DNA from: Naegleria gruberi
Lineage: Eukaryota
Length of the DNA stretch: 64,000 bases
Assembly: GCA_000004985.1 (NCBI GenBank)
Contig: GG738883.1
Direction: 5' to 3' (one strand)
Part shown: positions 31,542 to 62,480 of the stretch, one piece after another
How the letters are laid out: the number at the start of each line of letters is the position of its first letter
Position numbering within the stretch: the stretch's first letter is position 1
Program-made: the position numbers and the translations under genes
Notes under the pieces: generated by a model
What the model saw: the letters and a program-made list of their open reading frames with translations, nothing else
Database searches by the model: none
Told to the model about the DNA's origin: nothing

Positions 31542-31600
31542 TTCATTTATTTGTCGATTTTTGAGCTCCTTTTTTAAGACTTTCAATAATTTTCATGTTA

Positions 31601-34512
31601 TTAGCTGATGCATGAATTGTAAATAAAATCATGTGATGAAATATCCAGATACTTACGATTTTTGGCGAGAGATTGTATTGTTAGGGCGCATACTTTCTTT
31701 AAATTTTCATTCTTTGATATATTGATTGTGTGAAGGAGCATTTCAAGTCCTTTCATCTTTCCAACCTTGGTACTTGTATCTTCATGGGATGACATATTCT
31801 TTATGCATAACACTGCTTCCTTAACAATGTTATCATTCTTATTGGTGAGTAATTTAAGGATTATTGGAATGTACTTCTGGTCGTTTGATACAACTTTCAC
31901 GTTCATTTCTTATTTAAAATTGAATATACAATTAATTCAATATGTTGAAACTTACTTTCTGATGTATAGTTCTTAATGATTGTTAGGATATTCTCTAAAA
32001 TATATTCATTATTAGAAGTATCCAATAGGTTAAAAAGAGGCCCAAGAGCCTCAAAAATCTTATCCCTTATTTCTAAATCAACAGTTAAAAGAGATAAAGC
32101 ACCAGTTATATTCTCTAACACATTCTCAGAAGTCTCGTAAAGAAGTGACAATAATATTGGCAAGCCTCTATTGTTTCTAAATTGAGTTTTGACAGTATCC
32201 AACCTTGCACAATTCCAAATAGTGGCAGCTGCATACTCTTTTATGGTTGGTGAATTTACATTTAATAGCTCCACAAGTTTTGTAAGACAATTGGTTTCCA
32301 TCAACTCAGGAATTGTTTCAACTTGATGAAGATTAGACAATTAAAACTATCAAAACATACCAACAGTGGAAGAATTTCTTAAAATGCCCAGAATTTTTTC
32401 AACAACTGATAACGAAGAGTTCTCTAACATGCCAACTAATAATGGGAATCCATGACATTCTCTAATGAGTTTCTTGTTCATATTGTCAATGCTACAGATC
32501 CACATAGTACTTGCTAGCTTTTCAATGATTGATTGTTTAGTTTCCTTCTCCAAAATTGCAAGCATTAATTCCAGACCTCCAATTTCACCAATAGTTTGTT
32601 TGTTTTGGTCATTGATGGCACAATTTCTCAAAGCACCAATAGCATTTTCTCTAATATTTTCATTGTCAGATTGAAGACAATGCAAAAGTGGCTCAAGACC
32701 ATTTGTCTTTCTGATAATCACCTTGACCTCTGCTTGGGATGCACAATTCCAAAGAGTTCCAGTAATATTTTCAATCACTGCTTCATTTTCATATGTCAAT
32801 AGTTGTACAAGTTTTGGAATTCCTCCCTTTTCATAAATCTCCTTCTTGTTGTCGTTATCAACAGCAAGGTTCCACAAGCATCCAGTAACATTTTCAAGGA
32901 CCCCAGGATTATTTGAGGCCAACAAATCAAGCAATATTGAAATAGCTCCCAACTCACGAAGTGTCATCTTATTCTCTGTGTTCGAAGCACAATTCCAGAG
33001 AGCTCCTGCAGCCTTACTCTGCAAACCTTCATTTGGGAATTTGAGAACATCTAAAAGAAGAGAAAGACCTTGTGACTCTCGTACTGTAATTTTGTTGTCG
33101 TCATCTCTAGTAAGATAGCCTAACGCAATAGTTGTATTTTCCAAAACGCTTATATTGTTTGTTTTCAAAAGAGAACATATAGTTGGTATTCCTTGATTAT
33201 TCCTAATCAGAACCTTATTTTCATCATCAATAGATAGATGCCAAATAGCTGTGATGGCTTTATCCATTACTTCTTCATTTTGGGTTCTCCATATCAGCTC
33301 CAGTAAGTTTTGGATAACTCCTATTTGACCTAGATGTCTTCTATTCTCGGCAGTGACAGAAAATGCTGTAATTGTTGAGCATGCTGAACAAAATGTTAGA
33401 TAAGTTAACAATGAACTAAAACATACCTTCCCCGTTCACATTTTCATTAATAGATTTGAGCAGTCTGGCTACTTGATCGAATCCATTTCTTTCTTTAACA
33501 ATTTGACAATATTCTTCTTTTCTACAAAGTTCGGAAATGATTCCCAATTGCAAGAATTGAATATCTGGTCTTGACACTTTAAGAGAGTCTAGGAGAAGCT
33601 CAGTGATTGTTATCCAATATTTTTCGTAATGATAAAACTCCTCTTCAAGAGTGGAACATAATTTGTAAAATTCAGTCAAGGCTTCCTTAGCAACTGATTC
33701 GCTAGGAGCATTATTATTCTGCAGGAACCACACAAAAGTTTCCAATCTCTTCTCAAGAGGAGATACTGTGAGAGTGGCCAACTTTTGTCCAGAAACATTC
33801 TCACAAAGATAAGAGTGAGCAGCCTTTACGCATTTCGATGCAATAGAGATTGATTTCATCTGATTATGTCAATAGTAAAATCCTAACAAAATACACACCT
33901 TCTTTCTAGTTTCCTCAATTGAGTCCTCTAATTTTTGTAGTTCCATTTTCAGCATCTTTTTAGCATGTTCTTTTACCTCCACTAATGATCCAAAGTCACC
34001 CTATCCAAAATCCGATAACACTTACCTAGATCCATTGTTTGTTTTTCCTCTTGTTTTAATTTTTCCATTTGTTCCTCCAGTAACGATTTCAAATGTGTTT
34101 GATTAACTGAACATTCTCCATTCAATTTTGTAAAAATTCTATCGATAATCAATAATTCCAATCATCATCATTTCAACTTACTCTGCAGCAGGTATCATTG
34201 ATTCATCTACTCCAGATATAACATTTAAAACATTGAAAAACGAGAACACTATTGTCTTTGTTATCATCTTTTAAAAGGCTTGTTTAAAAAACATACAAGT
34301 TGTTTGTACATCATCCGGATGATCCGATGCAATACCATTCTGTTCCGTTGTTTTGGAAACAGTATTATTCTCCCTACATTACACAGTAGCAAATCATATT
34401 AAGGATGATGATTAGCTAATTGAAAGGGTGGTATTGTTTTACTTACATTTTTTTTGAATATTACTTGATTGGCCAATGGAAAAGCGTTAAAGTTCGGAAT
34501 CGCTTTTTGCAT
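31601..34512 (-). CDS. Armadillo (ARM)-repeat protein, possibly axonemal (ARMC3/ARMC4-like), about 838 aa. Nine exons on the minus strand: 34512..34447, 34369..34297, 34248..34182, 34138..34026, 33981..33899, 33859..33427, 33383..32361, 32321..31956, 31893..31601. The four 5'-most exons are the least certain.
   Basis: Four track ORFs (33416..33859, 32350..33411, 31903..32340, 31601..31906) are linked by GTATGT/GTAAGT introns of 39-62 nt with matching phases. There are 10 or more ARM repeats (e.g. VLENTTIALGYLTRDDDNKITVRESQGLSLLLDVL, NPGVLENVTGCLWNLAVDNDNKKEI). Upstream small exons were inferred from acttac/acatac donor signatures and open frames. Confidence 0.55.
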
Positions 34513-34945: not shown

Positions 34946-36227
34946 ATGGCCAAGACTGAGAGTATCAGAAGGCTTCAATCAATAGTAAGTAAACTCGTAG
35001 AGACTATGTGATCTTCAACTTAACAGCAATTAGGAAAATCAAATTTTGAAAGTCCTTCCATGATGAGTGTCGGTTCTCCAAATAATATTCATTCGTCTCC
35101 AGTCTCTCAAGATTGTAAGTGTTTCCGAATATTAATAAGGGTTGTTGATAATTGTATTAGTTGCTATTAATCCTGCTGTTGAACAACTTACGGATTGGAA
35201 GAATCAATTCAATGACAGACTATCTCAGGTTCAAGAAGAATTGTTAATGTTCCTGACACAAAAACATGTATCACAGGAGGAATTGGCAATTTTGATCAAA
35301 AACACATTTTCGGATTTTAAAATTTCAATTTCAGAATTATTGAATACTCTCACATTGTTAATGAAAAAGTTTTTAAAGAAATCTAAAAAGCTTGTTCAAA
35401 CAGCAGATAGTCAGTGGGAAGTTATTGTATTGGATCTTAACAATCAACTCGAGCATGTTTCTAGAGCTAGAGCAGTTGAGGAAGAAAAGAGAAAGGAATT
35501 GGAAAAGGAAGTTAAAATGTTAAGACAAAAGATGAAGTCAATGAAGATTGAAATGGTAAAACCAAAAGAAGATCAATATCAACAATTGGTAAATTCAATT
35601 CAATCAAACCCTTCCTCTCCAGTAGCCAAGGCAAGAGGTGTTGCAACTCCAAAGGGCTCTCCAACAAGAACACCAAACAAGAGTCCAAGAACACCAGCAG
35701 GAGGAAAGAAACCATTAACTTCTCCAAAAACAAAGACTCCAGCTAAACCTGCCGAAGAACCAGTCGTCACAGTTGAACCAGTTCCAGTTGTGACTGAATC
35801 ACCTAAAGTTGAAGAATCTGTTCCAGAAGTTAACGAACCAGAAGTTGTTGAACCACCTAAGGAAGAACCCCCAAAAGAGGAACCACCTAAGGAAGAAACT
35901 ACTCAAGTCGAGCCAAAGAAGGATGAAGAAGAGGAAGTAGACGAAAAGGATAGTAGACGAGACAGAAGAGGAAGAAGAGGAAAGAAAGACGATGAAGAGG
36001 AAGAAGAAGAGAAACCTACATCAAGAAGAGACAGAGGAAGAGGAAGAAGAGGTAAAAAGGATGATGAAGAAGAGGAAGAAAAAGAAGAGGAAAAGGAAGA
36101 AAGAGGCCGTGGCAGACCTTCACGAAGAAACAAGAAGAAGGACGAAGATGAAGAGGAAGAAGAGGAAGAGGAGAAACCTACAAGAAGAGTACGTGACAGA
36201 GGAGACAGAAGAAAGAGAAATGAATGA
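34946..36227 (+). CDS. Hypothetical coiled-coil protein with P/E/K-rich and RG/acidic-repeat C-terminal tail; 3 exons (34946..34984, 35027..35114, 35161..36227)
   Basis: MAKTESIRRLQSI|GTAAGT...cag|QLGKSNFESPSMMSVGSPNNIHSSPVSQD-F-AINPAVEQLTDWKNQF... The tail has EEPPKEE units and three RRDRGRGRRGKKDDEEEEE-like modules. Confidence 0.45.
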
Positions 36228-36410
36228 TTCAAATGAATTTCTTCTACTTCACTTGTAATCTATGTAATAATAAAAGAGAACTAATAATTCTAATTTCTTC
36301 CGAAACTTGCACGATTCAAACATTCCAATTTCCTTTGTTAATATTTAAATCCAATAATATGTTAGAACATAATTTTTGAAATTTTATATTTTAAATTTAT
36401 TGGAGTCGAT

Positions 36411-37162: not shown

Positions 37163-40020
37163 TTAAAGTCCAGAAATATCAGCTCTGAGTACTTTTCTCA
37201 TCATGTTTGCTCTCGATTTGATGATGTTTTCTTGTTCTTTCATCCACTCCTTGTCTCCCTTCTTGGTAATATCCTTAAGAGCCAACAAGTCATAAATAAA
37301 ACCTCTTCTAAATTCCTTCTTGACAAATTGGTAGAGGAAAAGGATGAGACTCTCTTTGAGGGAATCATGTTCCTCCACTTTGGCCAATCTAAAGAAGCAT
37401 CGAGTAATTTCCACCTCACTAAAATCTAACAATAAATTAAGGAATAACAATCTGAAAAAGACCACATCCAACTGTTGAAGACTATTAAAGTCAATAATCT
37501 TGAGCATGGAGAGTGAGAGACATCCTTTACCAATCAATTCTGAGAGAAGCTTACTGATATTGATCAGCTTTCTGACAGTATTCTTTGATAAATCATCAAA
37601 ATATTCGTAAAAAGTGAATTGGAATGCTCTGTTGGTATTTTCAATACTGCATAGCTTTTCTGCTAATTTGCTGTAGTATGGATTAAATCCCTTCTCTTGA
37701 CAACAACAGTGTAATAAAACTCTTGCAATTTCTCTATTGTTCTTTTGAATACCCAATTTGACTAATCTTTGGAATGCATCAATGAAATCGTCACTTCCCA
37801 TTAGAATACAGAAAACAGCCCTTCTCAAATCTGTTGTCATTCTCTGTTCCTTGGCAAGTTTTTCAAGTTTTCTGAGAGTCTTTGGATCCATGTCATGGAG
37901 GGCTACACTGATATTATCTCTATTCTTCATAGAAGACAATGCAGTAGCATTTGAATTATCAATTGAAGAACCAACTTGATTGCCAGTCCATGCTGAACCG
38001 ACAAGCCACCATCTACCCTTCTTTTCAGCTTCAATCAAATCAATATATGGAATTCTCAACGTGTTTTCTCCAGTCTTCTTCTCCTGTTTTTGTAAATCCT
38101 TGACGCTTTGTTTCAATTGTTTGTATTGTTCAGAAATGTCTTCTTGATATTGTCTCTTTCTATTATTTCTCAAATCATAAATCATTTCAACGAGGAATTT
38201 CATACGTTTAGCAACAGCTGAACCTTCGTCCTTCACGGTATCTTCGTATTTTTCAAAGCTTGACTTGATAACCTCGATAATGTCCTTCATGGCAGCAGGA
38301 TCGTCAATCTTGAGTTGGAAACCACAAGCTGAAATTAAATTTTAATATTGACTGATTCAAAACTGAATACACATACCTTGAAGTAATTTGAAAAGATATT
38401 CCACATTCAGTTCATTAATATTGAGGCAGAACATTCTAATAATATCATAGATGAGTCCACAATAAATTAACTATTGTAATAAAAGCTTTAAGAGAGCTAT
38501 TCAAATAAAAACTTACACCCAAATTGTAGACGTGACAAATTAATGTCAACAAGTTGGAAGCTTGATGTCTTTGATCGACAATTGAATCGAATTTTTGGAT
38601 CAATTTCTCCATAAAGTGAGCACCAATGTTGGTTCCTCCAATATTGTGCATTGCAACCATGTAGGCAGCATACACCAAAATGAAATTACTTTGAAGGTCA
38701 ACAGTGTCACAAACGCTTTCAATAATAGAATTTGAAAGAATATCATGGAAATCTTTGTATAAATAGTTAAAATCGTCATCAGACAAAAAAGAAACACTTA
38801 CCATTCTTACTACTCTTTTCATAGAGAGCTAATGATTCCTTTGTGATTGAAGAAATATTGGCAAGAGAAAGCTTGTTCAATAAATTTCTAATGCTCTTTT
38901 GAAGGGCAATATAGGATTCAGATTTTCTACCACTTTCCAAAATTTGTTGTTTTCTCATATGAGGAGGAACATATTTTCCACTTGTATTTTCTTCTGTTTC
39001 TCCTTCTGCTGGTTCTGAAGATCGCTCAGGTTTCTTTCCTTTTTGTAAAAGGGTGGCAAGGGTTGGTACTTCACTCTTTAAAAATTCAGAATAATCAACT
39101 CCTTGTTGCTCAGATTCAAGCATGGCGTCAATTTCTGCGTCAAGATTGATCATATCTTCTGGGTCAATATCACCAAACATTCCTTCATAATCTTCTGCAA
39201 ATTCTCCAAGATCTTCTTCATCAATTTTTGGTTCTATGTATCCAGGAACGATATCCTCTCCATCACTTTCTTCCTGCTCTTCTACAACCTTTTGTTTTTT
39301 CTTTTCTTGCTTTTTCAACCTCTTTTCCTTTACAAAGTTTTCCAAATTAGAGGAGCCAGGGTCTGTATCCAATTCGTCAATTGCCTTATTCTTTTTAATT
39401 TTCAATTTCTTTTCGAGATAGGCAATAACCTTATCATCTAGATCTTCATCACCCTTTGACATACCTTCTAACATGTCCTTTGTAATAAATATAGCTGTAG
39501 AGTCCTTATTATTTTTCAATTCTTCTTCATCCAAGTCGTCGATAATTTCCGATTCATCAGAATTGTAATCATTTCTAGAACTACCTCCATATCCATCATC
39601 AGAAAAATCATCATCTTCATCTTCAGCCATTAAATCATCCTCAAACAATAAATCCTCACTTTCTTCTTGCTTTCGTTTCTTGGCTTTCACTTCGGCTTTT
39701 TGAGATTCTTGCTTTCTCTTATTTGCTTGTTGTGGATTAGATTCTGTCTTCTTTGTTGGTTGAACTTTTTGGCTTCCCTTCTTATTAATCTCTTTTGGTT
39801 GTTTATCATGGTTTTTAGCTTTACTCAATTGTTTTTGCTTCTTTTTCTGTTTATTCTTTTTCTTTGATTTTGCCAACATGAAGCTCATTTGTTCAATATG
39901 TCCATCACCAAATTGTTTTGATCCGCCACCAATAGCAGCAGCATTTGTTTCCGCAAGATCATCATCTTCACCACCTCCTCTTCCTCTCTTTTTCCTAAAC
40001 GATTTTCCTCTGTTCATCAT
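37163..40020 (-). CDS. NOM1: Nucleolar MIF4G/MA3-domain protein NOM1/Sgd1 homolog, about 904 aa; 4 exons (40020..38802, 38752..~38517, 38470..38377, 38328..37163)
   Basis: Basic/acidic N-terminal region, a MIF4G segment (...LVYAAYMVAMHNIGGTNIGAHFMEKL...LICHVYNLG|LIYCGLIYDIIRMFCLNINELNVEYLFKLLQ-A-CGFQLKIDDP) and an MA3 segment (LRRAVFCILMGSDDFIDAFQRLVKLGIQ...). Three introns of about 46-49 nt link the track ORFs 38779..40020, 38445..38822 and 37163..38290. Confidence 0.7.
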
Positions 40021-41133: not shown

Positions 41134-43929
41134 ATGGCTCAACGTACTATCAGTTTGGGTAAGTAATTATTGTTATTGTGTTTGAAGGTATATGAAAATC
41201 ATTCCGAACTTTAATAGGGGTTAAATTTGTTGAGGGACAACATTGGCCAAAACCAAAGAATGCTAAAACTCCTTCAAAGTATCATTTTTCGATCTGCTTG
41301 TTGAATGGAGACATTGAAAAAACTAGAGTAATAACCGATGCAGAAATGGGAGCTATCAATATTGAGAAGTCATTTGCTAACATTCCAGTGGAAGTATGTA
41401 CACTTTTCTTCAGATTGTATTTATAATAATTAAGGATCTTTTGAATTTAGTAATTAATAACTCAACAGTGGATGTTCTCCATATAAAGATGATCAAGGGA
41501 GAAGATGACAAAAATGCTGTAGAATTTGGATTTTTGGATTTCAATATTTCAGGATTATTTACTAAAAACGAGGTGGAAGTAGTTGGAAATGTCACAATTA
41601 CTGAGGAAGGAGCAACACAGGAAGAAATTCCAACTGTAAAGCTACAGTTGAGTGTAAGTGAAGCTTTACTTCCAAAAAATGAAATATTGGAGGGAAATTT
41701 GCTTAGTATCAAACTGGGTCCAATAGTAAATTTACCAAGAAGTTGGCTTCCTAAAGATGCTCAAAATATTGCAGATATTCCATTAGATTTTACTGTAATG
41801 TGTAATTTACCTATTGGATCAGGCCAAAGAACCTACTTTTTCAGAAATGGTAGAATGGTAATGAGACCATCAACGGATGATCCAGAACGGAATGAGGCAG
41901 TAGTTCAATGGCCAAAGGATAAGAAAACTTTCTTTATAGATTCAGAAGCAATGAAGGCTTTCGAGAAGTCATGCGTAAATTGTGAATGCTTGAATTTCAA
42001 GCTGTATAGAGGAATAGTAAAGGAAATGATGATGGATGGATGGGTTGACCAAAATGAAAAACGATATAGAGCTGTTTTTGGAAAAACTCTGAGAGAATTA
42101 TTAGAACCAGGTACTAAATCATCCAAACAAGATATACAGTTGGGACACGCCTCTGCAGATGAAGAATTCCCTGCTGATCCAAGGCCAAAGAGTGCAAATA
42201 AGAAAAAGAAAAAGTCAAAGGATCCAACTCCAGCTCAATTATTACCTGATGCTGATCATGATTCAAAACCTTATGTTGAAAATGGATCGGCAATATCTAT
42301 CGAAATTTCATTTGAGAAACCTCTTATTCCAAAACCTGAGGACAGAACAAGAACCAACATGAGACCTTCTGATATTATAACAAAGAGACAAAAAGTAGAG
42401 AAGAAAAAGTAAGTTTTATTCAAGAATTGATTAGAATTTCAATCTTCAATTTATACAGGGACATTGTGGAAAAATACCAAGAAGAAATATCAGGTGTTGT
42501 GGACATTCTAGTTGAAGAATATAGAGCTCTAATTGAAAGAGAGTCTAACTTTGATAAGGAACATTTTATCTTTGAACTTAACCATACAGGAAAATACTTT
42601 GCTTTCAAGGAGAGACTGAAGGCTTGTGTTGTTAATCTTGTAAAAGAAAAGTTTAGTCATGAACTCAAGTCAAAGAAGGAACACGAGGTCAAGGCGTTCT
42701 ACAATGATATCTATGTTTACTTGGTAAAACAAATGCACGTTGCTATCAACAAGATATTCAACAAGGCAAAGGAACAAGATCGTAAAGAATCACCAATACA
42801 AGAAGAAAACAAGCAAGCAGACAAGTGGAAGAGACTTGCTGATGAGGCTGAATTCGAGTTTAATTATATTGCAGCTGCTAAATATCACCAAGAGAGAATA
42901 ACTGGTACAGATGAAGAGCTTACAGCAGAAATGTGGTATGAATACGGAATTTTCAGTTTGAGAGTAAAGGATTTGACTAAGGCTGAACAATCATTCAGAG
43001 AAACTCTTTCTCGAAACATGGCTCACTTAGAGTGTTTGAGAATGTATGGTGTTTTACTGTGTATCAAAGGTCAATTGAAGGAGGCAGAAGTATTCCTTCA
43101 GTCGTCAGTTGACTTGGATAACAATAACTTTATTTCATGGGGAGTTCTTGGAATGCTCTTCTCCTTAACAGGAAATGAGAAACAGGCATCTCAATCATTT
43201 TTATATGGTGATTTAGCAATGGAAAAGTCTGGTGTAGACAAAACTCTTCCACTCAAATTAAGAGTTGCTAACTTTTTATTGGAAGTTAATGCTGATTCTC
43301 TTGCTGAAAAGTTACTTATTGATTGTACACAACACTTTGGAGAGTCTGCTGATACATTATATGCTTTTGCCAAGATGTATTCTATTAGAGAGGATTATGA
43401 TTTGGCAAATGAACAATTACAAAAGAGTCTGAAGATTGTTTACAAATCCGGAAGAACATGGGAGTTGTTGGGTATGATTCATCTAAAGCTTGGTAATGTA
43501 ACTGAGGCTGAGAAGGATCTTGAGTCAGCTCTTAGTGTCTCTACGGCCCCAACAGCTCACATGTTATTGAGACTTGCCAATATTTATTTATCATTGGAGA
43601 AGTATGAAAAATCAAAAGACACTTATTTGAATGCAGCAAACTTGTGGTCTTCTTGTACAGCATGGTTAGGAGCAGGTATTTCCTATTATCGTTTGGGTGA
43701 CTATAATTTAGCAGAGCAAGCTCTTAATGAGGCCAACATTCAAAATAACAGAAATGCTGATGTTTGGGGATATCTTTCATTGATTGCTCTTCAAAACAGA
43801 AGAGAAAAAGAAGGAGAGAAATGTTTAAGAGAGGCACTCAAACATGGTTTAAAGGCTTCTAATCCAAGTCTTATTAATGAGATTTCTGCCTCCATTTCTC
43901 AATTCAAAACACTTAAAATAAATATTTAA
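41134..43929 (+). CDS. CFAP70: Cilia- and flagella-associated protein 70 (CFAP70/TTC18) ortholog, about 881 aa; 4 exons (41134..41158, 41218..41393, 41435..42408, 42459..43929)
   Basis: [30 protein letters not shown]...FYNDIYVYLVKQMHVAINKIF matches human CFAP70 ([28 protein letters not shown]...LYVFLVDQMHVALNQT). The TPR C-terminus SCTAWLGAGISYYRLGDYNLAEQALNEANIQNNRNADVWGYLSLIAL matches [47 protein letters not shown]. Donors are GTAAGT/GTATGT; the introns are 59, 41 and 50 nt. Confidence 0.75.
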
Positions 43930-43944: not shown

Positions 43945-46267
43945 TTAACTCAATTGGTGATCATTTAGAATATCTTCACAAAATATAAGTTGGTGGATCA
44001 GTGGAATGTATCCTTGTTTTTGTCCAATAACAAGTGATACTTGTGAATCAATAATTCCTTCATTTAGGTCTTCTCTTCTCAATAGCTTGTAAACTCTCAA
44101 TAAGATGTCATCTCCAAGCGATTCCTCCAAATACTTTCTTAACGCTTCTATTCTAAAGTTGAGAGAATCATTGTCCTTTGTCCCTTCTAACATTAAAGTT
44201 TTACCCATAATCTTGAACTTGTTTGGGAGTGCTGGTGATTCCTCCTCTTGTTCGTTTTCACTTGTAAAAATGTCATCGTCATCATTTCTTGACAAATTCT
44301 TAATATCTCCAACTACGTTTTTCATTGTTTTTAGAATTGAATTGTTCAAATTTCCTCCTGATTTTTGATTATATTGATTTTGGTGATCTTGAATTAAAAT
44401 ATTTGATCTATACCCATTATTGTTATTGTCATCTTGCTTTGGGATGACATTGTTTGCTTTCATTTTTGATAACCTTTCTTGCCTCCTCCTCTCCTCTGCA
44501 TATACTTGTTTTTCAGCTACTGAATCATCTATGGGACGCCCTGATTTTGGGGGCTGTGAAGAATCTGTCCCATCATACAATTGAGATTCCACTCGCCTAC
44601 GATTCATTTCAGCTTGCTTTCTCATTTCCCAGTATTGTTGCTTTCTGAACTCGGCTAATTTTTCTTCCTCCTTTTTTTTAATATCCTCCTCTCTCCTCCT
44701 TCCATCGTCTTTCGGAACAGCACTTGGTAGAGGTCTATTGCTTCCAATGTCTTTACTTAAAATAGAGTACTTGTCTTCCTCTTGCTTTACTCTCATTTTG
44801 TTCCTCAGAGCATTTACTCTGCAGAAATTCAACACAAAATTGGTCCTTAAGAACTTACCTTGCTTCTTCATAGATTGACTTTCTTTCTCGTTCTAACTTT
44901 TCTTCGGCATACTGCTTTTGCCTTAGCTCGTATTCTCTTTTTCTGTCGGCAATGTCTTTCATTCTCTGCTCTTCCTCAAACATTTTTTGTTCCTTCTCTT
45001 TTTGTAATTTTAAAAGTCTTTCCTTTTCTCTTTCTCTCTGCTCTTGGAGTTGTTTCCTCCTCTTCTCTTCCATCATCTTATCATTGATGAAACTTGCCTT
45101 TGGAGCGACTGAGGGTGTCACCAATTTAGGTGTTGGCTTTACAATATCTCTCTCGTATTTCGCAAGGACTGGAGCATTATTATTGTTATTGGAAATTAGA
45201 GGCATTCCTCCAACATTAGAGAACTTTCTATTATCCTTAAACGCAGAAGGTGGTACTTTAACTTCTGGGACTGGACTAGAAACTCCGCTTGGACTCTTTT
45301 CTTGTACTTTTTCTCCACTTGTTTCAGGCTCTCCTTTTGATAACAAGAATTCCATTCTCTTTTGAATGAATGGTATTTTCAAAACAGAGTTTATACTTGG
45401 CCTGTCTCTAGGATCCTTTTGTAACATTTTGCCAATCATATCCCTTAGATCAGACGAGTAAGTTGAACTAATTGGGGGATAGGTTCCTCTCAGAATTTTT
45501 CCAACCAGAGCTTTCATGTTATTAGCCTCAAAGGCATGTTTCAACGTCACCAATTCGTATAGAATGCACCCTAAAGACCATACATCGGATTTGTTGTTAT
45601 ATCTATTATTATGTTTAGCACATTTGTAATAAGCAGAAACTTACGGTTTTTCTTGACAAATTTCAGGTGACAAGTAGTAAGGAGTACCAACAAGGGTCTT
45701 GGCACATTCCATTGTCGATTGCAACACTTTGCTGATACCAAAATCTCCCAATTTCAAAGTTCCATCTTGTGCAATAAATATATTTTGTGTCTATGAAAGA
45801 GTTATCATGAAATGAAATAATTGGTGCATACCTTCAAGTCTCTGTGTAAAATTCTTCGGTCGTGAATATATTTTACAGCCATTGATATCTGTATGAACCA
45901 ATCCACAAGTTTTTCCTCTGGAAATAATTTTGATTTTTGTTGTTTAATCTTTTCATATAAATCTCCTTGACTCGCATATTCCATAACTATATTCAATTTT
46001 CCTCCATCCTGAAATGAATCAACATATTTTACAATATTGGGATGTTGAAGAGAACTTAATACTTTCACTTCATTAAGTGCTTCCTTTCTTTCCTTCTCCG
46101 GTATTCCTGATATTTCTATTTGTTTGATTATATACATGTTATTGTCAATTTTTGACTGAACAAGCACAGCTTGTCCGAAGGTTCCTTTTCCCACAACCTA
46201 TAACAGACTTGTTCAAATATTTCATCTTGAAATTACTCCTTACCTTGACCTTCTTGTAGTTTTGCAT
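43945..46267 (-). CDS. NIMA-related (NEK) serine/threonine kinase with long charged coiled-coil C-terminal region, about 717 aa; 5 exons (46267..46244, 46197..45832, 45790..45645, 45602..44859, 44818..43945)
   Basis: MQNYKKVK|[16 protein letters not shown]...[11 protein letters not shown]...HRDLK|[23 protein letters not shown]...[15 protein letters not shown]|[26 protein letters not shown] are NEK hallmark segments. Four introns of 40-46 nt have GTAAGG/GTATGC/GTAAGT donors. Confidence 0.75.
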
Positions 46268-46444: not shown

Positions 46445-48614
46445 TCATTCTTTAAGCATGCATGAATTGGTTTTCAAGTGGAAATCCCATTGCTTTTCAG
46501 TTCTGGTAATTGCATTGCCCAAAATTGTTTTAGTTTGAGTTTGAAGTGCTGCAATATACTTGTCCTTAACTTCCTTCTCGGAGGTGTTGGCATTTGCCTT
46601 CTTTGCTGCTTCTGAGCTGATCATTGATTCATCTAAAAAGCCAGCTGTATCAAGGAACTCAGTCATTGCTCCCATTAATTGATCGTACATAATGGATCTT
46701 CTAATCTTGGTTTCAAGTTTGGCAGTTTCTCTTTCAATATATTCAACCTGTTCCTTATCTAAAACTCTCATTAATTCTAACAAGACCACGAGGAGAGTGT
46801 GTCTCTTCTCATCCTCTGTAATTTGTTGCACAAGTGCCCTCAATGAGAAGAGAGAATAATCCCAAACAGTATTCGATTGTTGTAAAATGGTTGCTGCGTT
46901 TGTGTACAAACAATGGAAAGCATGTAGTAAATCTTCAGAAATGGAGAATGTTGTTACTTCATGATACAAGTGCTTGTTTCTTTCCACAAACTTTTCTCTC
47001 AGTAGATCAACCTTTATCTTTCTCATTTCGTCTCTATTGTCTTTTGGTGGGGCTGGTTCAGGTAAGTTATCAATCACTCTTTCTACTATATCATGCATTA
47101 CAATGTAAACTCCATTCTCCTCCTCCTTCTCTACAAAAGGTTCCAAATCCTGTTGTTCCTCTGAAATTACTACTCCTTTCAATTTTACCTCATCACAATC
47201 ACAATAAGCCTTTGGAATAGTTTCCAATTTAAATCCATCAGTAAAAATTCCTTCCATATCAGACTCGAATGAAAAGACAAACTTTTTGGTTTTTTGAGGA
47301 AGCAATATTCCCTTTCCTTCTGTAGAAAGCATAAATTTGGATTCAGCCCTCTTCTTTTGAAGTGATGTAATTGGCTCAACCTTAACCCATTTGTATTGGA
47401 TTGAGCAGCATCCTGTATTTTCAAGAACAACCTCCTTTTGAACCAATTCTCCTGGAATGGCATCAAAAAGAATATCATTTTCCGATAATTGAAAAGCAGG
47501 AGCTTCCATCTCTTCTTTTGCTTCCTCTTCCTTAATTTCGTATGGAAGATGAGAAGCAGAATATGTTTCCTCTTCGTCATATGTATTGTACTTTTCCTCA
47601 ATCTTTTGACCAATAACCTTCAGTTCTTCAATAAGAGAAGAGGGATCATGGGTTAGTTCCTTAGCTAATAGTTTTCCATATTTCTTTCTGAAATAGATTT
47701 AGAAATTTCGATTCAACCAGGGTACTTACTTTACATAGTCTGATTTCATTGACCTAATTCCCAAAGGTGTGTTATCCCTAATTAAACGTTCCAGTACATC
47801 TCAAAAACAATAGACAACTTACTCTGCAATAAATCTATCAGGATTTCTCACAGTAGCTGGCTTTCTAATTTTTTTCTCAATAATAGGACAAAACAAAGGA
47901 TATGGATAATTTCCAATTTTAACATATCTCACTCCATCGTCCTCAGGTACATCTACAATAACTTAAGTAAATGAAAAACATTAATACTAACTTCTAAGAG
48001 ATAATTCCCAACTCCATTCGTTGTGACGTTTTTCTACTGGAATGGAAGCTTCCAAAATATCTATTTCCTCTCTTTTTGCTCTGAATGCATCTTGACTTTC
48101 CATCACCAAAGAAGTTTTTGGCTATTATCCTCAATAAAACATTCAATCCCCAACCTACCTTTCCTGTTTTATTTGCCAACCGTTCTCCAATATCCCCCCA
48201 AGTTTGCAAATATTCTTCATACTTTCTGAGGGCCTTCTCTTGCATAAATTGTCTTCCTACTGCCTTATCGTCATGAATTGTTTTTTCCAACTTTTCCGAA
48301 AATTTTGGTTTTGTATTTCTAGAACTTTCCAAATTTTGCTTCATTCTCTTAAACGATTCATTATTAGCCTCCACATTTGAACACAATGATCCAGAACTCT
48401 GCAGTGTTGATTGAAGTTGTGATCGACTCATTGCAGTCATGTACTGATCCAATGATCCTAAAATTTCAATCTCCGATTTTGGAAGACGAGAAGCATCAAA
48501 TAAATTCGGAACCATACTAGGCTCCATTCCTGGTTCAACATTAGATAAATTCATCTCCATTGGAACCTCAACCCTTGGAGGTAATTGAGGAGCAGACTCT
48601 GGTTGTGGTGTCAT
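46445..48614 (-). CDS. ASH (MSP-like) domain protein, possibly MYCBP-associated protein (MYCBPAP/AMAP-1)-like, about 668 aa; 5 exons (48614..48159, 48121..47992, 47952..47823, 47777..47730, 47687..46445)
   Basis: Track ORFs 47994..48614 and 46445..47509 are linked through three micro-exons by introns of 37-45 nt (donors GTAGGT, GTTAGT, GTAAGT x2). The ASH-type beta-sandwich signature is FQLSENDILFDAIPGELVQKEVVLENTGCCSIQYKWVKVEP. The family call is tentative. Confidence 0.45.
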
Positions 48615-52800: not shown

Positions 52801-55479
52801 CGAGTCACACTCTTTGAATTTGGAAAGGAATTTCTCTCTCGAATATCTTACCATTCCTCTCAAAATTTCAATACCATAAGTCCATGGTTGGATGTGAACA
52901 AAATGATTTGGTGAATTTTTTTCCATCTTTTTCACAAAGAACATGTGGAGAATGTGAGGAAGAACTAAATCGAGAGCATCAGGTGGAAGAGCCATAATAC
53001 TCTCTTGGAATTCTTGTGAATTATTTGGTGGTTTGATTTGTCTCAATACAAAATTATATCTTTCCAAATGACTCTGAAAGAGGTATAAATTTGAGAGAAC
53101 CCAATGACAATACTTGAAATATTCTGGAAAATATTTTTTGGATTGGTTAATAAAGAGTGCCTTCTTTCCTTTTGAAAGATTGATATCAATTAACTTTTCA
53201 ACAATGGAACGAGCAGGTTGACTGATCTTTTTCAATGCAGGTACTTCTGGTTGATGGTTCAACATTCCAGTCTCCCTAATATACTTTTCAAGAGACCTCG
53301 TATTAAATAATGGCTCAAAAGTATAGAGAGAGGCTAGCAAACATCCAACAGCAAACATGTCATCATTATAAAGCTCGCCTTTGGATTGAACTCGAGAACG
53401 ATTAATCTTTTCAATGAATGGTACAACATGATAGGCAGAGCTGGTAAAGTACTTGCTACTGAATTTGACAGAATTTTCATACAAGTGCATTCTCTCCATA
53501 ATAGAATTTGATGTGGAATATCTAGGGGGGTGTGGTTCGAAGAATAATTGAACAAATCCAAAACGTGAAGGATACAAGTCGTTATTTTCCTTTCTCAACA
53601 TGACATTTTTAGCTTCAATGGCATGGTGTCCACTAAGCTTGTATCCAAAAATCAAATCAATCCAATGATGAATATTCTGACTCACATAGTCACTCTCCAG
53701 GGCAGCTTTATGCTTTTGAATAAATTCTTCAGGTGTAGAAGCCCACGGCGGCAATACTAAATCAGTCATGTCTGTATGAATGGAAGTGAACATGTTCGGA
53801 TCAGTGAAAAATTCTGGAATGCATTCATCTGGAGTCCACTGATAGAGACGAACAATGGAATTTGGATATTCTTTTGGTTCATAGTTTTGTCTGACAAATT
53901 TCCTCAATGCACTAATAGAAACTCTTCTTGCCTTGTAGATAAAGTAGGTAATTTCAGAAAGTGGCTCTGTAACGTGATGAGGATTATCTGGTGATTGATA
54001 GGTAAAATCCAACATTTCATCTCCCTTATTGAGTCTGAATTTAGTTTTGGTTAAATCTCTCCATTCAACACGTGAGTTTGGATCGGTTGGGTCACTCTCA
54101 AAATCAATAATCCATGGCAATACAGGATGATACTGTTGATCACCAAGTCTCCTCCCAGCAAGAGCATTAAGTTTCATCAAGTAGTCAAAATTTGAAATTT
54201 TACCCTCCTGCCATAAGAGAACTAGATCTTTGGTTCTATTCTCGGAAATGTTCTGTGGTGACAATAGGGTACTATTATTTCCAGCTGTACCAGTATTGGA
54301 TGTTTTTGAGGGTGATTTAAATTCTGCCATTGGTGTTTGTAAAACGTGATGATGATGATCAGAGATGTGTTCTGGAGTATAGAGTATATCCTGTCCAATA
54401 ATTGAAATCCACAACATTTCATTGATTAGAATATTATTGGGTATTAATTTTCCATGAGCAATATTATTCTTGTGACAATGTGAAACTGCCTGTAATAATT
54501 GATAGAATAAAAATCTTCTACGAATGTCATCTAAATTAATTGAATAAAAAGTTAATGAAATAATGAAACAATTATTAAAAAAAAACAATATAAAAACAAA
54601 CCTGTTTCAAGAAGAACCTTATTGAATTGAATCAATTCTTCCCAAGTATAATTGTACATTTCCAAAACAATAAACCAAGCATTTTTACTTTCATAAACAT
54701 CGTATAATAATGGTATATTAGCGTGCTATAAATAATAGTATTTCAATAATTATCATTTCCAAATGAATAAATAATTGATAATAAACAAATTTTAATAATG
54801 TTGATAAGTTAAATATTTAAAAATAATTATAACATACCTTTGGAATAAAAGGACCGTCAAATAATATAAAAGTTTCATCCAAATCCCCATGTGAAGGATT
54901 ATAAAAAGTATAATCATCCAAAATTAATTGATTTAAATGATAAATTTGTGATAATGAATGATGTATGGCCTTTCTAATTGAATGATTAGATTTTCCATCT
55001 CCCATTTCAAATTGTTTCGGAATGACTCGTACCACTACATTTACTTCATCGGGTAATAATGAAAGTGGAATACTATTATTTGAAATGATATTATGATGAT
55101 TAGAATTGTTATTATTGTTACTATTATTAACATTGTTATTATCCAAATTATTATTATTCAAATTATTCACATTATTTTCTTCATGTAATTGATCCTGTTG
55201 ATCTTGTTGATTCATTGTTGGAGATATTGATGATGAAATTGATGGTGATGAATTTAATTCATCTTGTTGTGATAAATTTTCATCATCTGTTAACACATGA
55301 TTATCAAAAGTAGGCCTCTTTTTATAAATCTTGGATCGTTTACTATTATACATTTTGCAACAAGCATAGGAACATTTTCTCGTATATTCGGGACTCAACA
55401 TGTACTGATACTCGATGAGAGTCGGCGAGAGATCCTGTTCAATATATTCTCTCACTTGACTCGCATTTAAATTTCCCAT
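49900..55479 (-). CDS. WDR81: WDR81 ortholog (N-terminal pseudokinase-like region, BEACH domain, C-terminal WD40 repeats), about 1798 aa; 3 exons (55479..54838, 54725..54602, 54530..49900)
   Basis: The BEACH domain WQEGKISNFDYLMKLNALAGRRLGDQQYHPVLPWIIDF...FRLNKGDEMLDFTY...ITYFIYKARR...YQWTPDECIPEFFTDPNMFTSIH...HHWIDLIFGYKL aligns closely with human WDR81 ([38 protein letters not shown]...). C-terminal WD40 repeats are present (IRVWDTRNS...). Exon 1 (track ORF 54817..55479) joins through GTATGT and GTTTGT introns of 112 and 71 nt. Confidence 0.8.
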
Positions 55480-59498: not shown

Positions 59499-59572
59499 TA
59501 CAGCGAGCGGGGCTTGAACCCGCGACCTTAAGCGTGTTAGGCTTACGATCTAACCAACTGATCTATCGCTGC
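59499..59572 (-). tRNA. tRNA-Val (anticodon AAC)
   Basis: Minus-strand GCAGCGATAGATCAGTTGGTTAGATCGTAAGCCTAACACGCTTAAGGTCGCGGGTTCAAGCCCCGCTCGCTGTA. Anticodon stem TAAGC/GCTTA with loop CTAACAC. T-arm GCGGG-TTCAAGC-CCCGC. There is a G1-U72 wobble in the acceptor stem and a 3' T-run. Confidence 0.75.
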
Positions 59573-59763: not shown

Positions 59764-62480
59764 ATGTCGACAACAAGTCACTTCAGTGATGAAAGTCTGC
59801 ATGATGATAATTTATTTGCAGAACATCCGATGGGAATTTATGATCAAGAAGAAAATCTTTACAAACACCAGCAACAAATCTATCGACCACTGAAGAAACT
59901 TTCCTCCACACAATTATCCACAGTTTACCTTTGTGAGAATTCTAATGGAAAACTTGTTGTATTAAAAGTTGCATCCTATGAAAATGAACAAGATACCATC
60001 GAGTGGAATCCGAAATTAGTTGAAGAATCGAATAGACTACATACACAATATCTACTTTATATTCTGGATGTTTTTACAGTGGAAAAAACCAATGGGAAAT
60101 ATTTGTGTGTAGTTTCCGAATATTGTGAGAATGGGAGTTTAGCAACAAGTATTGATGCTTTGCGTAAATCAATGAATGTTTCGTTATTCCTTCAGATATT
60201 ATTTCAAATGTTGCGTGCTTTGGATGCTCTTCATTTTGGTCTGTTTGTTCATGCTGATGTGAAGTTGGATAATATATTTGTGAGGAAATTTGATAGAAAT
60301 AGAGTATTTGTGGTATTGGGAGATTTGGGTTTAAGTTCCAAGATGGATTTTACTGAGGAGGAATTGTCTCAAAATTGTATTGATGTAGATAATGAACTGA
60401 CAACAGTCACTACAGGAGAAATTGGAACCTTTTCGTATAGAGATCCAATAATAATGAAACGAAGAAAAGTGTATTTCAAAAGTGATATTTGGAGTTTAGG
60501 TATGTTTCTCTTTTTTCTATTTGAGAATTGAACCTAATTTCTAAAGGAATAACTTTATTGAAATTGATATCAAGAGACGAAATGCCCAATTTTGAATCGA
60601 CAACAACAGAAGAAAGACTCAACACCATTCGACAAATATTTTCCCATTTTGAGACTGAAAAAAAAGAATGGGAAGTTTGTCAGAATATTATTGAACGAAT
60701 GTTAGTGGAAGATGTTACAGAGAGAGCAACTATTTCAGAAATTCGTTTAATGATTTATTCTACAACTATTGATGACTCATCATTTGAAAACAATTACCAA
60801 CATTTAAGGGAGGAATTCAAATACAACAGATCTGTAATTATTAGCTGTCTAAATGCAAAGGGAAGCATTTTACAACATGTACCTGATGCATTTCATTTCA
60901 ACAGAAAAATTGTAATGGAAGCAATTCACAATAATCCAAGCGCTTACCAATACATCAAAGGATACTTGAAATACCAACCATATATTGTAAACGCAGTTAT
61001 AGAAAGAGATCCATCTGTTCAAGTACCAGTTCATTTGGTAAAAGCTCCTTCACATTACGTTGCTAATAGCATTATCATTGAGCTTTCGGAACAAGAGAAG
61101 AATGACAAAGGGTTATTTATGGAAATTCTTGAAAGAGATGGTACGAGTTTAAAAGATGCCTCTTGGGAATTGAAAAATGATAGAGATTGTGTTATAAAAA
61201 GCGTAACACAGAGAGGAATTTCATTACAGTTTGCCTCAACTGATTTACGAAATGATGGAGAAATTGTGAGAATAGCTATTTCACAAAATGGAATGGCCTT
61301 AGAGTACGCTCATCCATTATTAAGACAAAGAGAAGATATTGTGATGAAAGCTGTTTCACAAAATGGATTGGCACTTCAATTTGCTTCAATAGAAATGAGA
61401 AATAATCAAAGAGTTGTGGAAAGGGCTGTATTGTCTGAATATACAGGCCAATTATTGTTTCTGATTGGTGAGGAATTGAGAAGTGACGTATCGTTCATGG
61501 TAAGATTGCTTAGTCTTAATCAGTTATTGTTTTTTCAATATTTGTTTTCTTTTGGAGAAGAATCTTTCAGAAATCTATGTGATGAGTATCAACATGAGGA
61601 TCAGTTTATTTGGTGTCTCAATGGATTGTTCGGCATTTTCGAAGATAACATTAATGGAGCACTGAAATATTTTCAACTTGCTGCAGAAAAAGACAATGCG
61701 TCTGCTGAACACTTCCTCGGTATAATGTACCATAAAGGACAAGTTGTGGAACAGGATTTTTGTAAGGCTTTTGAATGGTTTGGTAAATCAGCTGAAAAAG
61801 GATATCCAGAAGCTCAATTCTCGATTGGGTTAATGTATTATCACGGAGAATATGTTTCAAAAAATAAGGAAAGAGAATTTTATTGGATTTATAGAGCTGC
61901 TGAGCAAGGACATGTTAAGGCTGAAAGTTCTATTGCTTGTCTTTATTATGCTCAGGAAGAATATTCCAAATCATTTGAGTGGTATTTGAAAGCAGCTGAA
62001 AAAGGAGATTCAGATTCTCAATTTGAAATAGGTTCACTGTATCACAAAGGATTGGGAATACCAAAAGATTTTACAAATGCCTTTAGTTGGTATTCGAAAG
62101 CTGCAGAACATGGTCATTCGAAAGCTCAAAATAATATTGGAGTATTGTATCAAACAGGACAAGGTATTCCACAAAATTATTCCAAAGCACTTGAATGGTT
62201 CATGAAATCAGCTGAGAATAATGATACAGATGCCATGAATTTTATTGGACTGATATATCAAGAAGGCCAAGGAGTTCCACAAGACAACATCACAGCATTC
62301 GAATGGTTTCTAAAAGCAGCCGAATGTGGCAATGTACAATCTCAAATACTTGTCGCTACCATGTATCATCATGGTATTGGAGTGGAGCAAAACTTGTATG
62401 ATGCACTGAAATGGTATGAAAAAGCTGCAGGAGGAACTCAGAATAATTCAAAAGCTGATTCCAAAGAAATTGAGAATTGA
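59764..62480 (+). CDS. Degenerate protein-kinase (likely pseudokinase) domain fused to DUF4116 repeats and C-terminal Sel1 (TPR-like) repeats, about 890 aa; 2 exons (59764..60499, 60547..62480)
   Basis: The kinase-like region has a degenerate Gly loop, VLKVA in place of the VAIK lysine motif, HAD in place of HRD (LFVHADVKLDNIFV), and DLG in place of DFG. A GTATGT..AG 47-nt intron (phase 1) joins to DUF4116 repeats (DREIVLKAV/QNGxALQFAS pattern). About 8 Sel1 repeats follow (AQxxLGxxYxxGxGVxQDxxxAxxWxxKAAExG). Confidence 0.7.

What the first reader, a model, noticed from the sequence alone, without database searches (positions are those of the whole stretch)
47688..48158. Ultra-short spliceosomal intron class (37-50 nt) alongside a 60-210 nt class
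Phase-consistent exon joins in the MYCBPAP-like, NEK, NOM1, ARM-repeat, CFAP70 and hydrolase genes require introns of 37-51 nt. Examples are gtaggttggggattgaatgttttattgaggataatag (37 nt), 39-nt introns at 32322..32360 and 47953..47991, and a 41-nt intron at 41394..41434. Other genes (GT61, M32, EF-hand, ACH1, transporter, WDR81) have 56-207 nt introns. The short class is close to the minimal functional intron length and implies tight intron-definition constraints. One such intron has a weak GTTAGT donor (47986..47991 on the plus strand).
Basis: inference. Interest (0 to 1): 0.5.

Follow-up and report, generated by a model that had tools for sequence, protein, structure and literature searches.

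The report
Ordinary short introns, Naegleria-like genome
The 37-45 nt gaps are real spliceosomal introns in a Naegleria-like amoeba genome. Their tight ~45-nt length peak with a tail of longer, mostly first, introns is the usual pattern of compact eukaryotic genomes, not a special ultra-short class.

Summary
The four GT..AG segments at 47688-48158 (37, 39, 45, 42 nt, minus strand) are genuine introns of a MYCBPAP-like gene. Removing them gives a 668-aa ORF colinear with Naegleria and Willaertia orthologues. All four sit at the position and phase of introns in related genomes.

The window is heterolobosean, of the Naegleria clade. A census of 14 multi-exon genes gives 38 GT-AG introns. Twenty-seven are 37-52 nt (mean 44.8, sd 4.3) and 11 are 56-207 nt.

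- 37-52 nt is not "ultra-short" as the field uses the term (15-30 nt).
- The two classes are not gene-specific. The CoA-transferase, CFAP70-like and ODAD2-like genes each mix both.
- Eight of the 11 long introns are first introns.
- One orthologous intron is 37 nt here but 119-139 nt in N. lovaniensis and N. fowleri.
- Splice signals are the same in both classes.
- GTTAGT is the fourth-weakest of 38 donors, but T at +3 occurs in 4 of 38.

This is the familiar "minimal-intron peak plus tail". It is real, ordinary and of low novelty.

The parts
46445..48614 (-). MYCBPAP-like gene, 5 exons, 668 aa
   Evidence: Clean spliced ORF. Pfam MYCBPAP E=1e-26. 52-53% identical to the N. fowleri and N. lovaniensis orthologues.
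48122..48158 (-). MYCBPAP intron 1, 37 nt, phase 0, GTAGGT..TAG
   Evidence: Junction GK|PK is gapless against the orthologues. Same position and phase as the 139-nt (N. fowleri) and 119-nt (N. lovaniensis) introns. Absent in contig L004.
47953..47991 (-). MYCBPAP intron 2, 39 nt, phase 1, GTTAGT..TAG (weak donor)
   Evidence: Junction SLR|NVPEDDG is gapless. Orthologous introns are 51, 50, 43 and 38 nt in N. fowleri, N. lovaniensis, W. magna and L004. Donor ranks 4th weakest of 38.
47778..47822 (-). MYCBPAP intron 3, 45 nt, phase 2
   Evidence: Orthologous introns are 56, 52, 36 and 41 nt.
47688..47729 (-). MYCBPAP intron 4, 42 nt, phase 2
   Evidence: Junction DYVK|KKYG is gapless. Orthologous introns are 54, 54 and 38 nt.
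43945..46267 (-). NEK kinase gene, 717 aa. Introns 46243-46198 (46), 45831-45791 (41), 45644-45603 (42), 44858-44819 (40)
   Evidence: Model. The kinase domain aligns at residues 1-267 to human NEK1 (4apc_A) with zero gaps across the first three junctions. The fourth intron rests on ORF joining only.
31543..34448 (-). ODAD2/ARMC4-like ARM-repeat gene, 825 aa, 9 introns: 34446-34374 (73), 34296-34249 (48), 34181-34139 (43), 34025-33982 (44), 33898-33860 (39), 33426-33384 (43), 32360-32322 (39), 31955-31909 (47), 31656-31605 (52)
   Evidence: 65% identical to N. lovaniensis P0032, with no gaps at junctions. All nine positions and phases match the N. lovaniensis gene structure.
37163..40020 (-). 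NOM1/Sgd1-like gene. Introns 38801-38753 (49), 38516-38471 (46), 38376-38329 (48)
   Evidence: The Pfam MIF4G match is one contiguous stretch (profile positions 2-202 of 203) over all three junctions.
41134..43929 (+). CFAP70-like TPR gene. Introns 41159-41217 (59), 41394-41434 (41; a 20-nt alternative is not excluded), 42409-42458 (50)
   Evidence: For the third intron, 7 of 7 homologues show an 8-aa gap opposite the residues that the 26-nt alternative would retain.
21412..22817 (-). Alpha/beta-hydrolase gene. Introns 22357-22308 (50), 21984-21934 (51)
   Evidence: The second junction restores the GSSMG nucleophile elbow. Weak Pfam hydrolase matches span it.
10204..11950 (+). Introns 10388-10594 (207), 10950-11000 (51), 11623-11665 (43)
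   Evidence: The alignment to PDB 9vag_F is gapless at all three junctions.
35115..35160 (+). 46-nt intron of gene 35060-36227
   Evidence: ORF joining only, GTAAGT..TAG.
60500..60546 (+). 47-nt intron of the kinase/Sel1-repeat gene 59764-62480
   Evidence: Restores the kinase motif DIWSLG. The Pfam Pkinase match at 43-311 is contiguous.
1489..1573 (+). 85-nt first intron of the GT61 gene
   Evidence: ORF joining, GTATGT..AAG.
7038..7139 (+). 102-nt first intron of the M32 carboxypeptidase gene
   Evidence: Gapless junction next to the HETGH motif against PDB 7a03_A.
8994..9121 (+). 128-nt first intron of the EF-hand gene (GTTTGT donor)
   Evidence: ORF joining.
9345..9400 (+). 56-nt second intron of the EF-hand gene (GTAGAG donor, the weakest in the window)
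   Evidence: Restores the canonical EF-hand loop DKDKSGCISLLE. Pfam EF-hand_1 at 113-139.
16458..16684 (+). Amino-acid transporter gene: introns 16458-16557 (100) and 16599-16684 (86) around a 41-nt exon
   Evidence: The Pfam Aa_trans match at 43-99 is contiguous over both junctions.
54531..54837 (-). BEACH/WDR81-like gene: introns 54837-54726 (112) and 54601-54531 (71)
   Evidence: The kinase-like Pfam stretch at 214-293 is contiguous.

Best explanation
These are ordinary U2-type GT-AG spliceosomal introns of a gene-dense heterolobosean genome (Naegleria clade, about 34% G+C). Their lengths follow the common 'minimal-intron peak plus tail' pattern. Most introns sit in a narrow band around 45 nt (37-52 nt), and a minority, mainly the first intron of a gene, are 56-207 nt. 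Recognition presumably works across the intron (intron definition, inferred). It would rely on a strong 5' splice site (AAG|GTAWGT, with G+5 and T+6 nearly invariant), a degenerate branch site, no polypyrimidine tract, and a [T/C/A]AG acceptor. The narrow peak most likely marks a lineage-specific lower length limit of the spliceosome, towards which compaction pushes introns (inferred). The floor differs between relatives. It is about 36-44 nt in W. magna and a metagenomic relative, about 45 nt here, and about 42-56 nt in N. fowleri and N. lovaniensis. Short and long introns are not separate kinds, because an orthologous intron can be 37 nt in one species and 119-139 nt in another.
For: Reality of the introns: a clean 668-aa ORF, gapless alignment to orthologues over junctions, and conserved positions and phases in N. 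fowleri, N. lovaniensis, W. magna and metagenome contig L004. The same holds for all nine introns of the ODAD2-like gene. The NEK, CoA-transferase and M32 junctions are gapless against solved structures. Pfam domains run contiguously over the NOM1, transporter, EF-hand and kinase junctions. Lineage: the best hits are Naegleria and Willaertia, with synteny to N. lovaniensis. Distribution: 38 introns, 27 at 37-52 nt (mean 44.8, sd 4.3) and 11 at 56-207 nt. First-intron effect: 8 of 14 against 3 of 24, P=0.008. Same signals in both classes: all GT-AG, and median donor score 9.9 against 9.7 bits. Shift between classes: 37 nt here against 139 and 119 nt. Window introns are shorter than their N. lovaniensis orthologues in 11 of 13 pairs (P=0.02).
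Against: There is no transcript evidence. About 10 of the 38 junctions rest only on ORF joining with canonical sites. One acceptor is ambiguous (41 or 20 nt at 41394). Introns whose retention keeps an ORF open can be missed, as the 52-nt 3' intron was found only through an orthologue, so the census is incomplete. The sample is one 64-kb window. Three genes (EF-hand, transporter, WDR81-like) have long introns at both positions, so some gene-level effect remains (non-first introns only, permutation P=0.004). Published mean intron lengths for Naegleria (126-203 nt) are well above the 60-nt mean found here.
Confidence: 0.9

Rival explanations
1. Two mechanistically distinct intron classes: a length-constrained short class and a separate long class, with their own recognition rules or gene sets.
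For: A 2-component mixture fits far better than one component (BIC 17.4 against 42.9). GTTTGT donors occur only in long introns (3 of 11 against 0 of 27). Long introns are more AT-rich (21% against 26% G+C). Three genes have only long introns. The neighbours of MYCBPAP in N. fowleri and N. lovaniensis have only 66-437-nt introns, while MYCBPAP itself has 42-56-nt ones.
Against: Three genes mix classes. Lengths are continuous through 52, 56, 59, 71, 73. Median donor strength is about equal and all introns are GT-AG. An orthologous intron is 37 nt here and 119-139 nt in relatives, and two ODAD2-like introns are 43 and 44 nt here against 78 and 84 nt in N. lovaniensis. Most long introns are simply first introns. 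A narrow peak plus a broad tail gives a 2-component fit in any case.
Confidence: 0.07
2. Short introns are a property of flagellar or ciliary genes (MYCBPAP, NEK, ODAD2-like, CFAP70-like), selected for fast expression during the amoeba-to-flagellate switch.
For: These four genes hold 20 of the 38 introns, and 18 of those 20 are 37-52 nt. In N. fowleri and N. lovaniensis the MYCBPAP gene has short introns while its neighbours do not.
Against: Non-ciliary genes have equally short introns: NOM1 (49, 46, 48), hydrolase (50, 51), kinase/Sel1 (47), gene 35060 (46), and the CoA-transferase non-first introns (51, 43). The time saved by removing about 50-150 nt is negligible (inference). No expression data are available.
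Confidence: 0.03
3. The short 'introns' are artefacts of gene modelling: pseudogene frameshifts, assembly errors or chance GT..AG pairs.
For: No transcript data. GT..AG pairs are frequent in AT-rich DNA. My own crude gene finder produced false models.
Against: Positions and phases are conserved in up to four other genomes. Alignments to solved structures and Pfam profiles are gapless across junctions. The donor consensus is strong (GTAAGT or GTATGT in 29 of 38). Every 3n intron carries an in-frame stop, and all the others shift the frame.
Confidence: 0.01

Closest known systems
'Minimal intron' peak plus long tail, the intron-length distribution of many eukaryotes (Yu et al. 2002, 'Minimal introns are not junk', cited in PMC13644364; PMC2856156; from my own knowledge, C. 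elegans about 47 nt, fission yeast about 45 nt, Drosophila about 60 nt)
   Same: A narrow species-specific peak (here 44.8 +/- 4.3 nt) close to the shortest observed length, a broad right tail, first introns that tend to be longer, and canonical GT-AG signals.
   Different: Nothing essential. The peak position is specific to this lineage, and there is no polypyrimidine tract (acceptors TAG 23, CAG 8, AAG 7).
Annotated introns of Naegleria fowleri, N. lovaniensis and Willaertia magna
   Same: Same intron positions and phases in the MYCBPAP and ODAD2-like genes. The same GTAAGT/GTATGT..[T/C/A]AG signals. Short introns of 36-56 nt are already present in the public gene models. The N. fowleri authors set the minimum intron length to 30 nt for read mapping (PMC8296547).
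   Different: The window's introns are shorter than their N. lovaniensis orthologues in 11 of 13 pairs (median difference 11 nt). Published mean intron lengths (126-203 nt) do not reveal the roughly 45-55-nt mode.
True ultra-short intron systems: Stentor (15-16 nt), Paramecium and Nyctotherus (about 25 nt), myxozoans (median 27 nt), and from my own knowledge the Bigelowiella nucleomorph (18-21 nt)
   Same: Compaction towards a narrow length band. All 3n introns here carry in-frame stops, which is reminiscent of Paramecium.
   Different: The minimum here is 37 nt and the mode is about 45 nt, roughly twice as long. A long tail persists. The 3n-with-stop pattern is not significant in AT-rich sequence, and 3n lengths are not depleted (12 of 38).

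Membership tests
U2-type GT-AG spliceosomal intron | GT at the 5' end and AG at the 3' end | tested here: met
   38 of 38 introns.
U2-type GT-AG spliceosomal intron | 5' splice site complementary to U1 snRNA (consensus AG|GTRAGT) | tested here: met
   Consensus AAG|GTAWGT. G+5 in 37 of 38. T+6 in 32 of the first 35 introns, and also in the three added later. GTAAGT 20, GTATGT 9.
U2-type GT-AG spliceosomal intron | Branch-point motif (YTRAY-like) 10-40 nt upstream of the acceptor | tested here: inconclusive
   YTRAY occurs in 16 of 35 against 14.6 expected. CTAAY occurs in 6 against 2.3 expected (P about 0.02). YTRAH occurs in 28 against 20.6 expected (P=0.005), uncorrected for multiple motifs.
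U2-type GT-AG spliceosomal intron | Removal restores a reading frame colinear with homologues | tested here: met
U2-type GT-AG spliceosomal intron | Excision observed in RNA | not testable with these tools
   No transcript data are available.
Ultra-short intron class as used in the literature (about 15-30 nt) | Typical length of 30 nt or less | tested here: not met
   Minimum 37 nt, and peak mean 44.8 nt. The 20-, 26- and 29-nt candidates were not favoured.
Minimal-intron peak plus tail architecture | Narrow mode near the shortest length together with a broad right tail | tested here: met
   27 of 38 lie within 37-52 nt (sd 4.3), and 11 spread over 56-207 nt.
U12-type (minor) intron | AT-AC termini or a /GTATCCTT donor with a TCCTTAAC branch site | tested here: not met
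   No such donor among the 38.
Heterolobosea, Naegleria clade (source organism) | Closest orthologues and conserved gene order | tested here: met
   Orthologue identities are 53-65% to N. lovaniensis and N. fowleri and 46% to W. magna. The gene order RRM-RPS15a-SNARE-ODAD2-geneP-RPL34e is shared with N. lovaniensis. The species was not identified, and exact look-up of EF2 found nothing.

The most novel reading that the evidence does not exclude
Heteroloboseans may carry a species-specific, tightly held minimal intron length: about 38-41 nt in a metagenomic relative, about 45 nt here, and about 50-55 nt in N. fowleri and N. lovaniensis. Orthologous introns would then move between the 'minimal' state and an expanded state. 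If so, the clade would be a natural series for measuring how the spliceosome's lower length limit evolves. It would also suggest that published Naegleria mean intron lengths (126-203 nt) are inflated by gene models that fuse two short introns across a small exon, as the false 208-nt NOM1 'intron' did here.
Probability: 0.3. Interest if true: 0.35.

Novelty: already known. Interest (0 to 1): 0.15.

Why it matters
It matters mainly for annotation. Gene finders and read mappers for this lineage must allow introns down to about 35 nt, exons of about 40-95 nt, and even a start codon split by an intron. Otherwise they fuse short introns into false long ones (the NOM1 case), truncate genes (the ODAD2-like 3' end) or split genes (contig L004). 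Biologically it adds one more lineage, an excavate, to the general rule that compact genomes hold most introns at a narrow species-specific minimum. It opens no new question on its own.

Tried and rejected
- A self-trained dynamic-programming gene finder merged neighbouring genes and mis-modelled the verified MYCBPAP introns (it gave 37/30/135). I dropped it in favour of manual ORF joining checked by homology.
- A concatenated 2601-aa query to the protein database returned nothing and cost one search.
I used the translation of a single exon instead.
- A 208-nt NOM1 intron was rejected. It is two introns of 46 and 48 nt around a 94-nt exon that completes the MIF4G domain.
- A 29-nt candidate intron at 34296-34268, and a start at ATG 34267, were rejected. 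The N. lovaniensis orthologue shows a 48-nt intron (34296-34249) one residue before LFSFFN.
- A 26-nt alternative at 42409-42434 was rejected, because 7 of 7 homologues lack the 8 residues it would retain.
- A 20-nt alternative at 41394-41413 was judged unlikely. It is far below the observed floor, but it is not excluded, because the N-terminal alignment is poor.
- The search for a branch-point consensus gave only weak enrichment.
- Exact look-up of the window's EF2, to identify the source genome, found nothing. The N. gruberi genome paper is not held in the library.
- The Rfam scan found only two tRNAs and nothing in or near the introns.

Full report
**What is at the coordinates.** The window is AT-rich (about 34% G+C) and gene-dense. 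On the minus strand between 48614 and 46445 lies a gene whose reading frame is broken four times. Each break is bridged by a canonical GT..AG segment:
- 48158-48122 (37 nt, GTAGGT..TAG)
- 47991-47953 (39 nt, GTTAGT..TAG)
- 47822-47778 (45 nt)
- 47729-47688 (42 nt)

Removing them gives an uninterrupted 668-codon ORF. That ORF matches Pfam MYCBPAP (E=1e-26).

**Are they real introns?** The spliced protein is 52-53% identical to annotated proteins of Naegleria fowleri and N. lovaniensis and 46% identical to one of Willaertia magna. In the multiple alignment, three of the four junctions fall in conserved, gap-free stretches (GK|PK, SLR|NVPEDDG, DYVK|KKYG), and the third junction has a single 1-aa gap.

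I fetched the orthologous loci and reconstructed their exon structures exactly from the deposited proteins. I also rebuilt the gene on a metagenomic contig from a further relative (L004). All four window introns sit at the position and phase of introns in N. fowleri and N. lovaniensis.

| Intron | Window | Orthologous lengths |
|---|---|---|
| 1 | 37 | 139, 119 (N. fowleri, N. lovaniensis) |
| 2 | 39 | 51, 50, 43, 38 (N. fowleri, N. lovaniensis, W. magna, L004) |
| 3 | 45 | 56, 52, 36, 41 (N. fowleri, N. lovaniensis, W. magna, L004) |
| 4 | 42 | 54, 54, 38 (N. fowleri, N. lovaniensis, L004) |

Chance GT..AG pairs or frameshift errors cannot produce this pattern.

**Source organism.** The best hits for two genes are Naegleria and Willaertia. 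The gene order RRM protein, RPS15a, V-SNARE, ODAD2-like, unnamed gene, RPL34e is shared with N. lovaniensis contig PYSW02000024. The window therefore comes from a heterolobosean of the Naegleria clade. No exact copy of its EF2 is on record, so I cannot name the species.

**Window-wide census.** I rebuilt 14 multi-exon genes by joining open reading frames through GT..AG pairs, then checked the junctions.
- The NEK kinase domain aligns to human NEK1 over 267 residues with no gap, across three junctions.
It aligns to 9vag_F with no gap at any of its three junctions.
- The M32 junction is gapless against 7a03_A.
- Pfam MIF4G, Aa_trans, EF-hand and Pkinase matches run as single stretches over the NOM1, transporter, EF-hand, WDR81-like and kinase/Sel1 junctions.
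- The hydrolase junction rebuilds the GSSMG nucleophile elbow, and the kinase junction rebuilds DIWSLG.
- The ARM-repeat gene is ODAD2/ARMC4-like and 65% identical to N. lovaniensis P0032, with no gaps at junctions. All nine of its introns match the N. lovaniensis structure in position and phase.
- For the CFAP70-like gene, seven homologues show an 8-residue gap exactly where a 26-nt alternative would retain sequence. This supports the 50-nt intron.
- About ten junctions rest on ORF logic alone.

**Result.** There are 38 introns, all GT-AG. Sorted lengths are:

37, 39, 39, 39, 40, 41, 41, 42, 42, 43, 43, 43, 44, 45, 46, 46, 46, 47, 47, 48, 48, 49, 50, 50, 51, 51, 52 | 56, 59, 71, 73, 85, 86, 100, 102, 112, 128, 207.

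Twenty-seven lie in 37-52 nt (mean 44.8, sd 4.3). A two-component mixture on log length is much preferred over one component (BIC 17.4 against 42.9).

1. 'Ultra-short' and 'close to the minimal functional length' are overstated. The literature uses the term for about 15-30 nt: Stentor 15-16 nt, Paramecium and Nyctotherus about 25 nt, and myxozoans median 27 nt, with introns under 30 nt regarded as exceptional in animals. A W. magna orthologue already has a 36-nt intron.
2. The classes do not follow genes. The CoA-transferase gene has 207, 51 and 43 nt. The CFAP70-like gene has 59, 41 and 50 nt. The ODAD2-like gene has 73 nt followed by eight introns of 39-52 nt.
3. Long introns are mostly first introns: 8 of 14 first introns against 3 of 24 others (Fisher P=0.008). 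This is a well-known general trend.
4. Class is not a fixed property of an intron. The 37-nt intron is 119-139 nt in N. lovaniensis and N. fowleri, and two ODAD2-like introns of 43 and 44 nt are 78 and 84 nt in N. lovaniensis.
5. Splice signals do not separate the groups. The consensus is AAG|GTAWGT, with G+5 in 37 of 38, and acceptors are TAG 23, CAG 8, AAG 7. There is no polypyrimidine tract. Median donor scores are 9.9 and 9.7 bits.

A residual gene effect does exist. The EF-hand, transporter and WDR81-like genes have long introns at both positions (non-first introns only, P=0.004). GTTTGT donors occur only in long introns (3 of 11 against 0 of 27). The sample is too small to build on either point.

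**The weak donor.** GTTAGT scores 6.4 bits in a leave-one-out matrix against a median near 9.9, which ranks it fourth-weakest of 38. It keeps G+5 and T+6. T at +3 occurs in 4 of 38 introns. The orthologous donors in N. fowleri and N. lovaniensis are GTAAGT. 'Weak' is fair, but it is not exceptional. The EF-hand GTAGAG donor is far weaker (-2.6 bits), yet it is required to rebuild a canonical EF-hand loop.

| Motif | Observed (of 35) | Expected | P |
|---|---|---|---|
| YTRAY | 16 | 14.6 | not enriched |
| CTAAY | 6 | 2.3 | about 0.02 |
| YTRAH | 28 | 20.6 | 0.005 |

These values are not corrected for testing several motifs. The branch site appears degenerate.

**Mechanism.** What is shown: canonical GT-AG introns with a strong 5' site, a narrow length mode, and positions conserved across the clade. 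What is inferred: recognition is by pairing of the two ends across the intron (intron definition). The narrow band reflects a lineage-specific lower limit on the distances between the 5' site, the branch and the 3' site, towards which deletion bias or selection for compactness pushes introns. First introns escape more often, perhaps because they carry regulatory sequence. The floor seems to differ between relatives. Window introns are shorter than their N. lovaniensis orthologues in 11 of 13 pairs (sign test P=0.02, median difference 11 nt).

**Comparison with what is known, and novelty.** This is the 'minimal-intron peak plus tail' architecture described for many eukaryotes. Short introns at these very positions are already present in the public N. 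fowleri, N. lovaniensis and W. magna gene models. The N. fowleri authors set a 30-nt minimum intron for read mapping. Published summaries give only means (126-203 nt), which hide the mode. My false 208-nt NOM1 'intron', really 46 + 48 nt around a 94-nt exon, shows how such means can be inflated. That point is the only mildly new angle. The finding is real but ordinary, and I score its interest at 0.15.

**Limits.** There is no transcript evidence, and only one window was examined. Introns whose retention leaves an ORF open are easily missed. One acceptor is ambiguous (41 or 20 nt at 41394), and a possible 50-nt intron near 27668-27619 is unresolved.

Noticed in passing
window 34374-34448 (-): The start codon of the ODAD2-like gene appears to be split AT|G by the 73-nt first intron. 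The upstream frame is open for only 4 codons and holds no ATG. N. lovaniensis has an intron at the same position and phase, splitting the same Met codon, although its annotation extends further upstream.
   Followed up: partly
window 38329-38516 (-): In NOM1, a 94-nt exon (38470-38377) lies between introns of 46 and 48 nt. A simple model fuses them into a false 208-nt intron and deletes part of the MIF4G domain. Errors of this kind could inflate published mean intron lengths for the clade.
   Followed up: yes
window 31543-31656 (-): A 52-nt intron near the 3' end of the ODAD2-like gene is invisible to ORF logic, because retention gives a short alternative tail. The true stop is at 31543, not 31601. 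The intron was found only through the N. lovaniensis orthologue.
   Followed up: yes
window 34668-34760 (+) and 59499-59572 (-): Two tRNA genes. One is tRNA-Val(AAC). The other is a 93-nt tRNA with a long extra arm or an intron, to which ARAGORN could not assign an anticodon (Rfam tRNA, 48 bits).
   Followed up: partly
window 27633-36779; L005: The gene order RRM protein, RPS15a, V-SNARE, ODAD2-like, unnamed gene, RPL34e is conserved with N. lovaniensis contig PYSW02000024. In contrast, the MYCBPAP neighbourhood is not syntenic with N. fowleri, N. lovaniensis or W. magna, where MYCBPAP sits next to a MeaB gene.
   Followed up: partly
It is only distantly related to acetyl-CoA hydrolase structures (E about 1e-9 to 1e-11).
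   Followed up: partly
window 40189-40923 (+): A separate single-exon Peptidase_M76 (ATP23-like) gene lies just upstream of the CFAP70-like gene, which starts at 41134. The two are not one gene.
   Followed up: yes
window, all introns: All 12 introns whose length is a multiple of three carry an in-frame stop if retained, and 3n lengths are not depleted (12 of 38). In sequence this AT-rich the stop pattern is only weakly unexpected.
   Followed up: partly
window 8994, 16599, 54601: GTTTGT donors occur only in introns longer than 52 nt (3 of 11 against 0 of 27). Long introns are also more AT-rich (21% against 26% G+C).
   Followed up: no
window 2498-3604 and 4609-5874 (+): Two neighbouring single-exon genes look like tandem paralogues. 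Both end in ..PAFNPNVD[R/S]V, and neither has a Pfam match.
   Followed up: no
L004 1590-3670 (ENA ERZ27315067 k141_264763): A metagenomic contig from an unidentified heterolobosean carries the MYCBPAP orthologue with four introns of 38, 44, 41 and 38 nt. The automatic gene caller split it into two 'genes' because of those introns.
   Followed up: partly
window 27619-27668 (-): A possible 50-nt GTAAGT..CAG intron at the end of the RRM-protein gene would be followed at once by a TAA stop. Retention adds 19 codons instead. The two readings cannot be told apart without RNA data.
   Followed up: no
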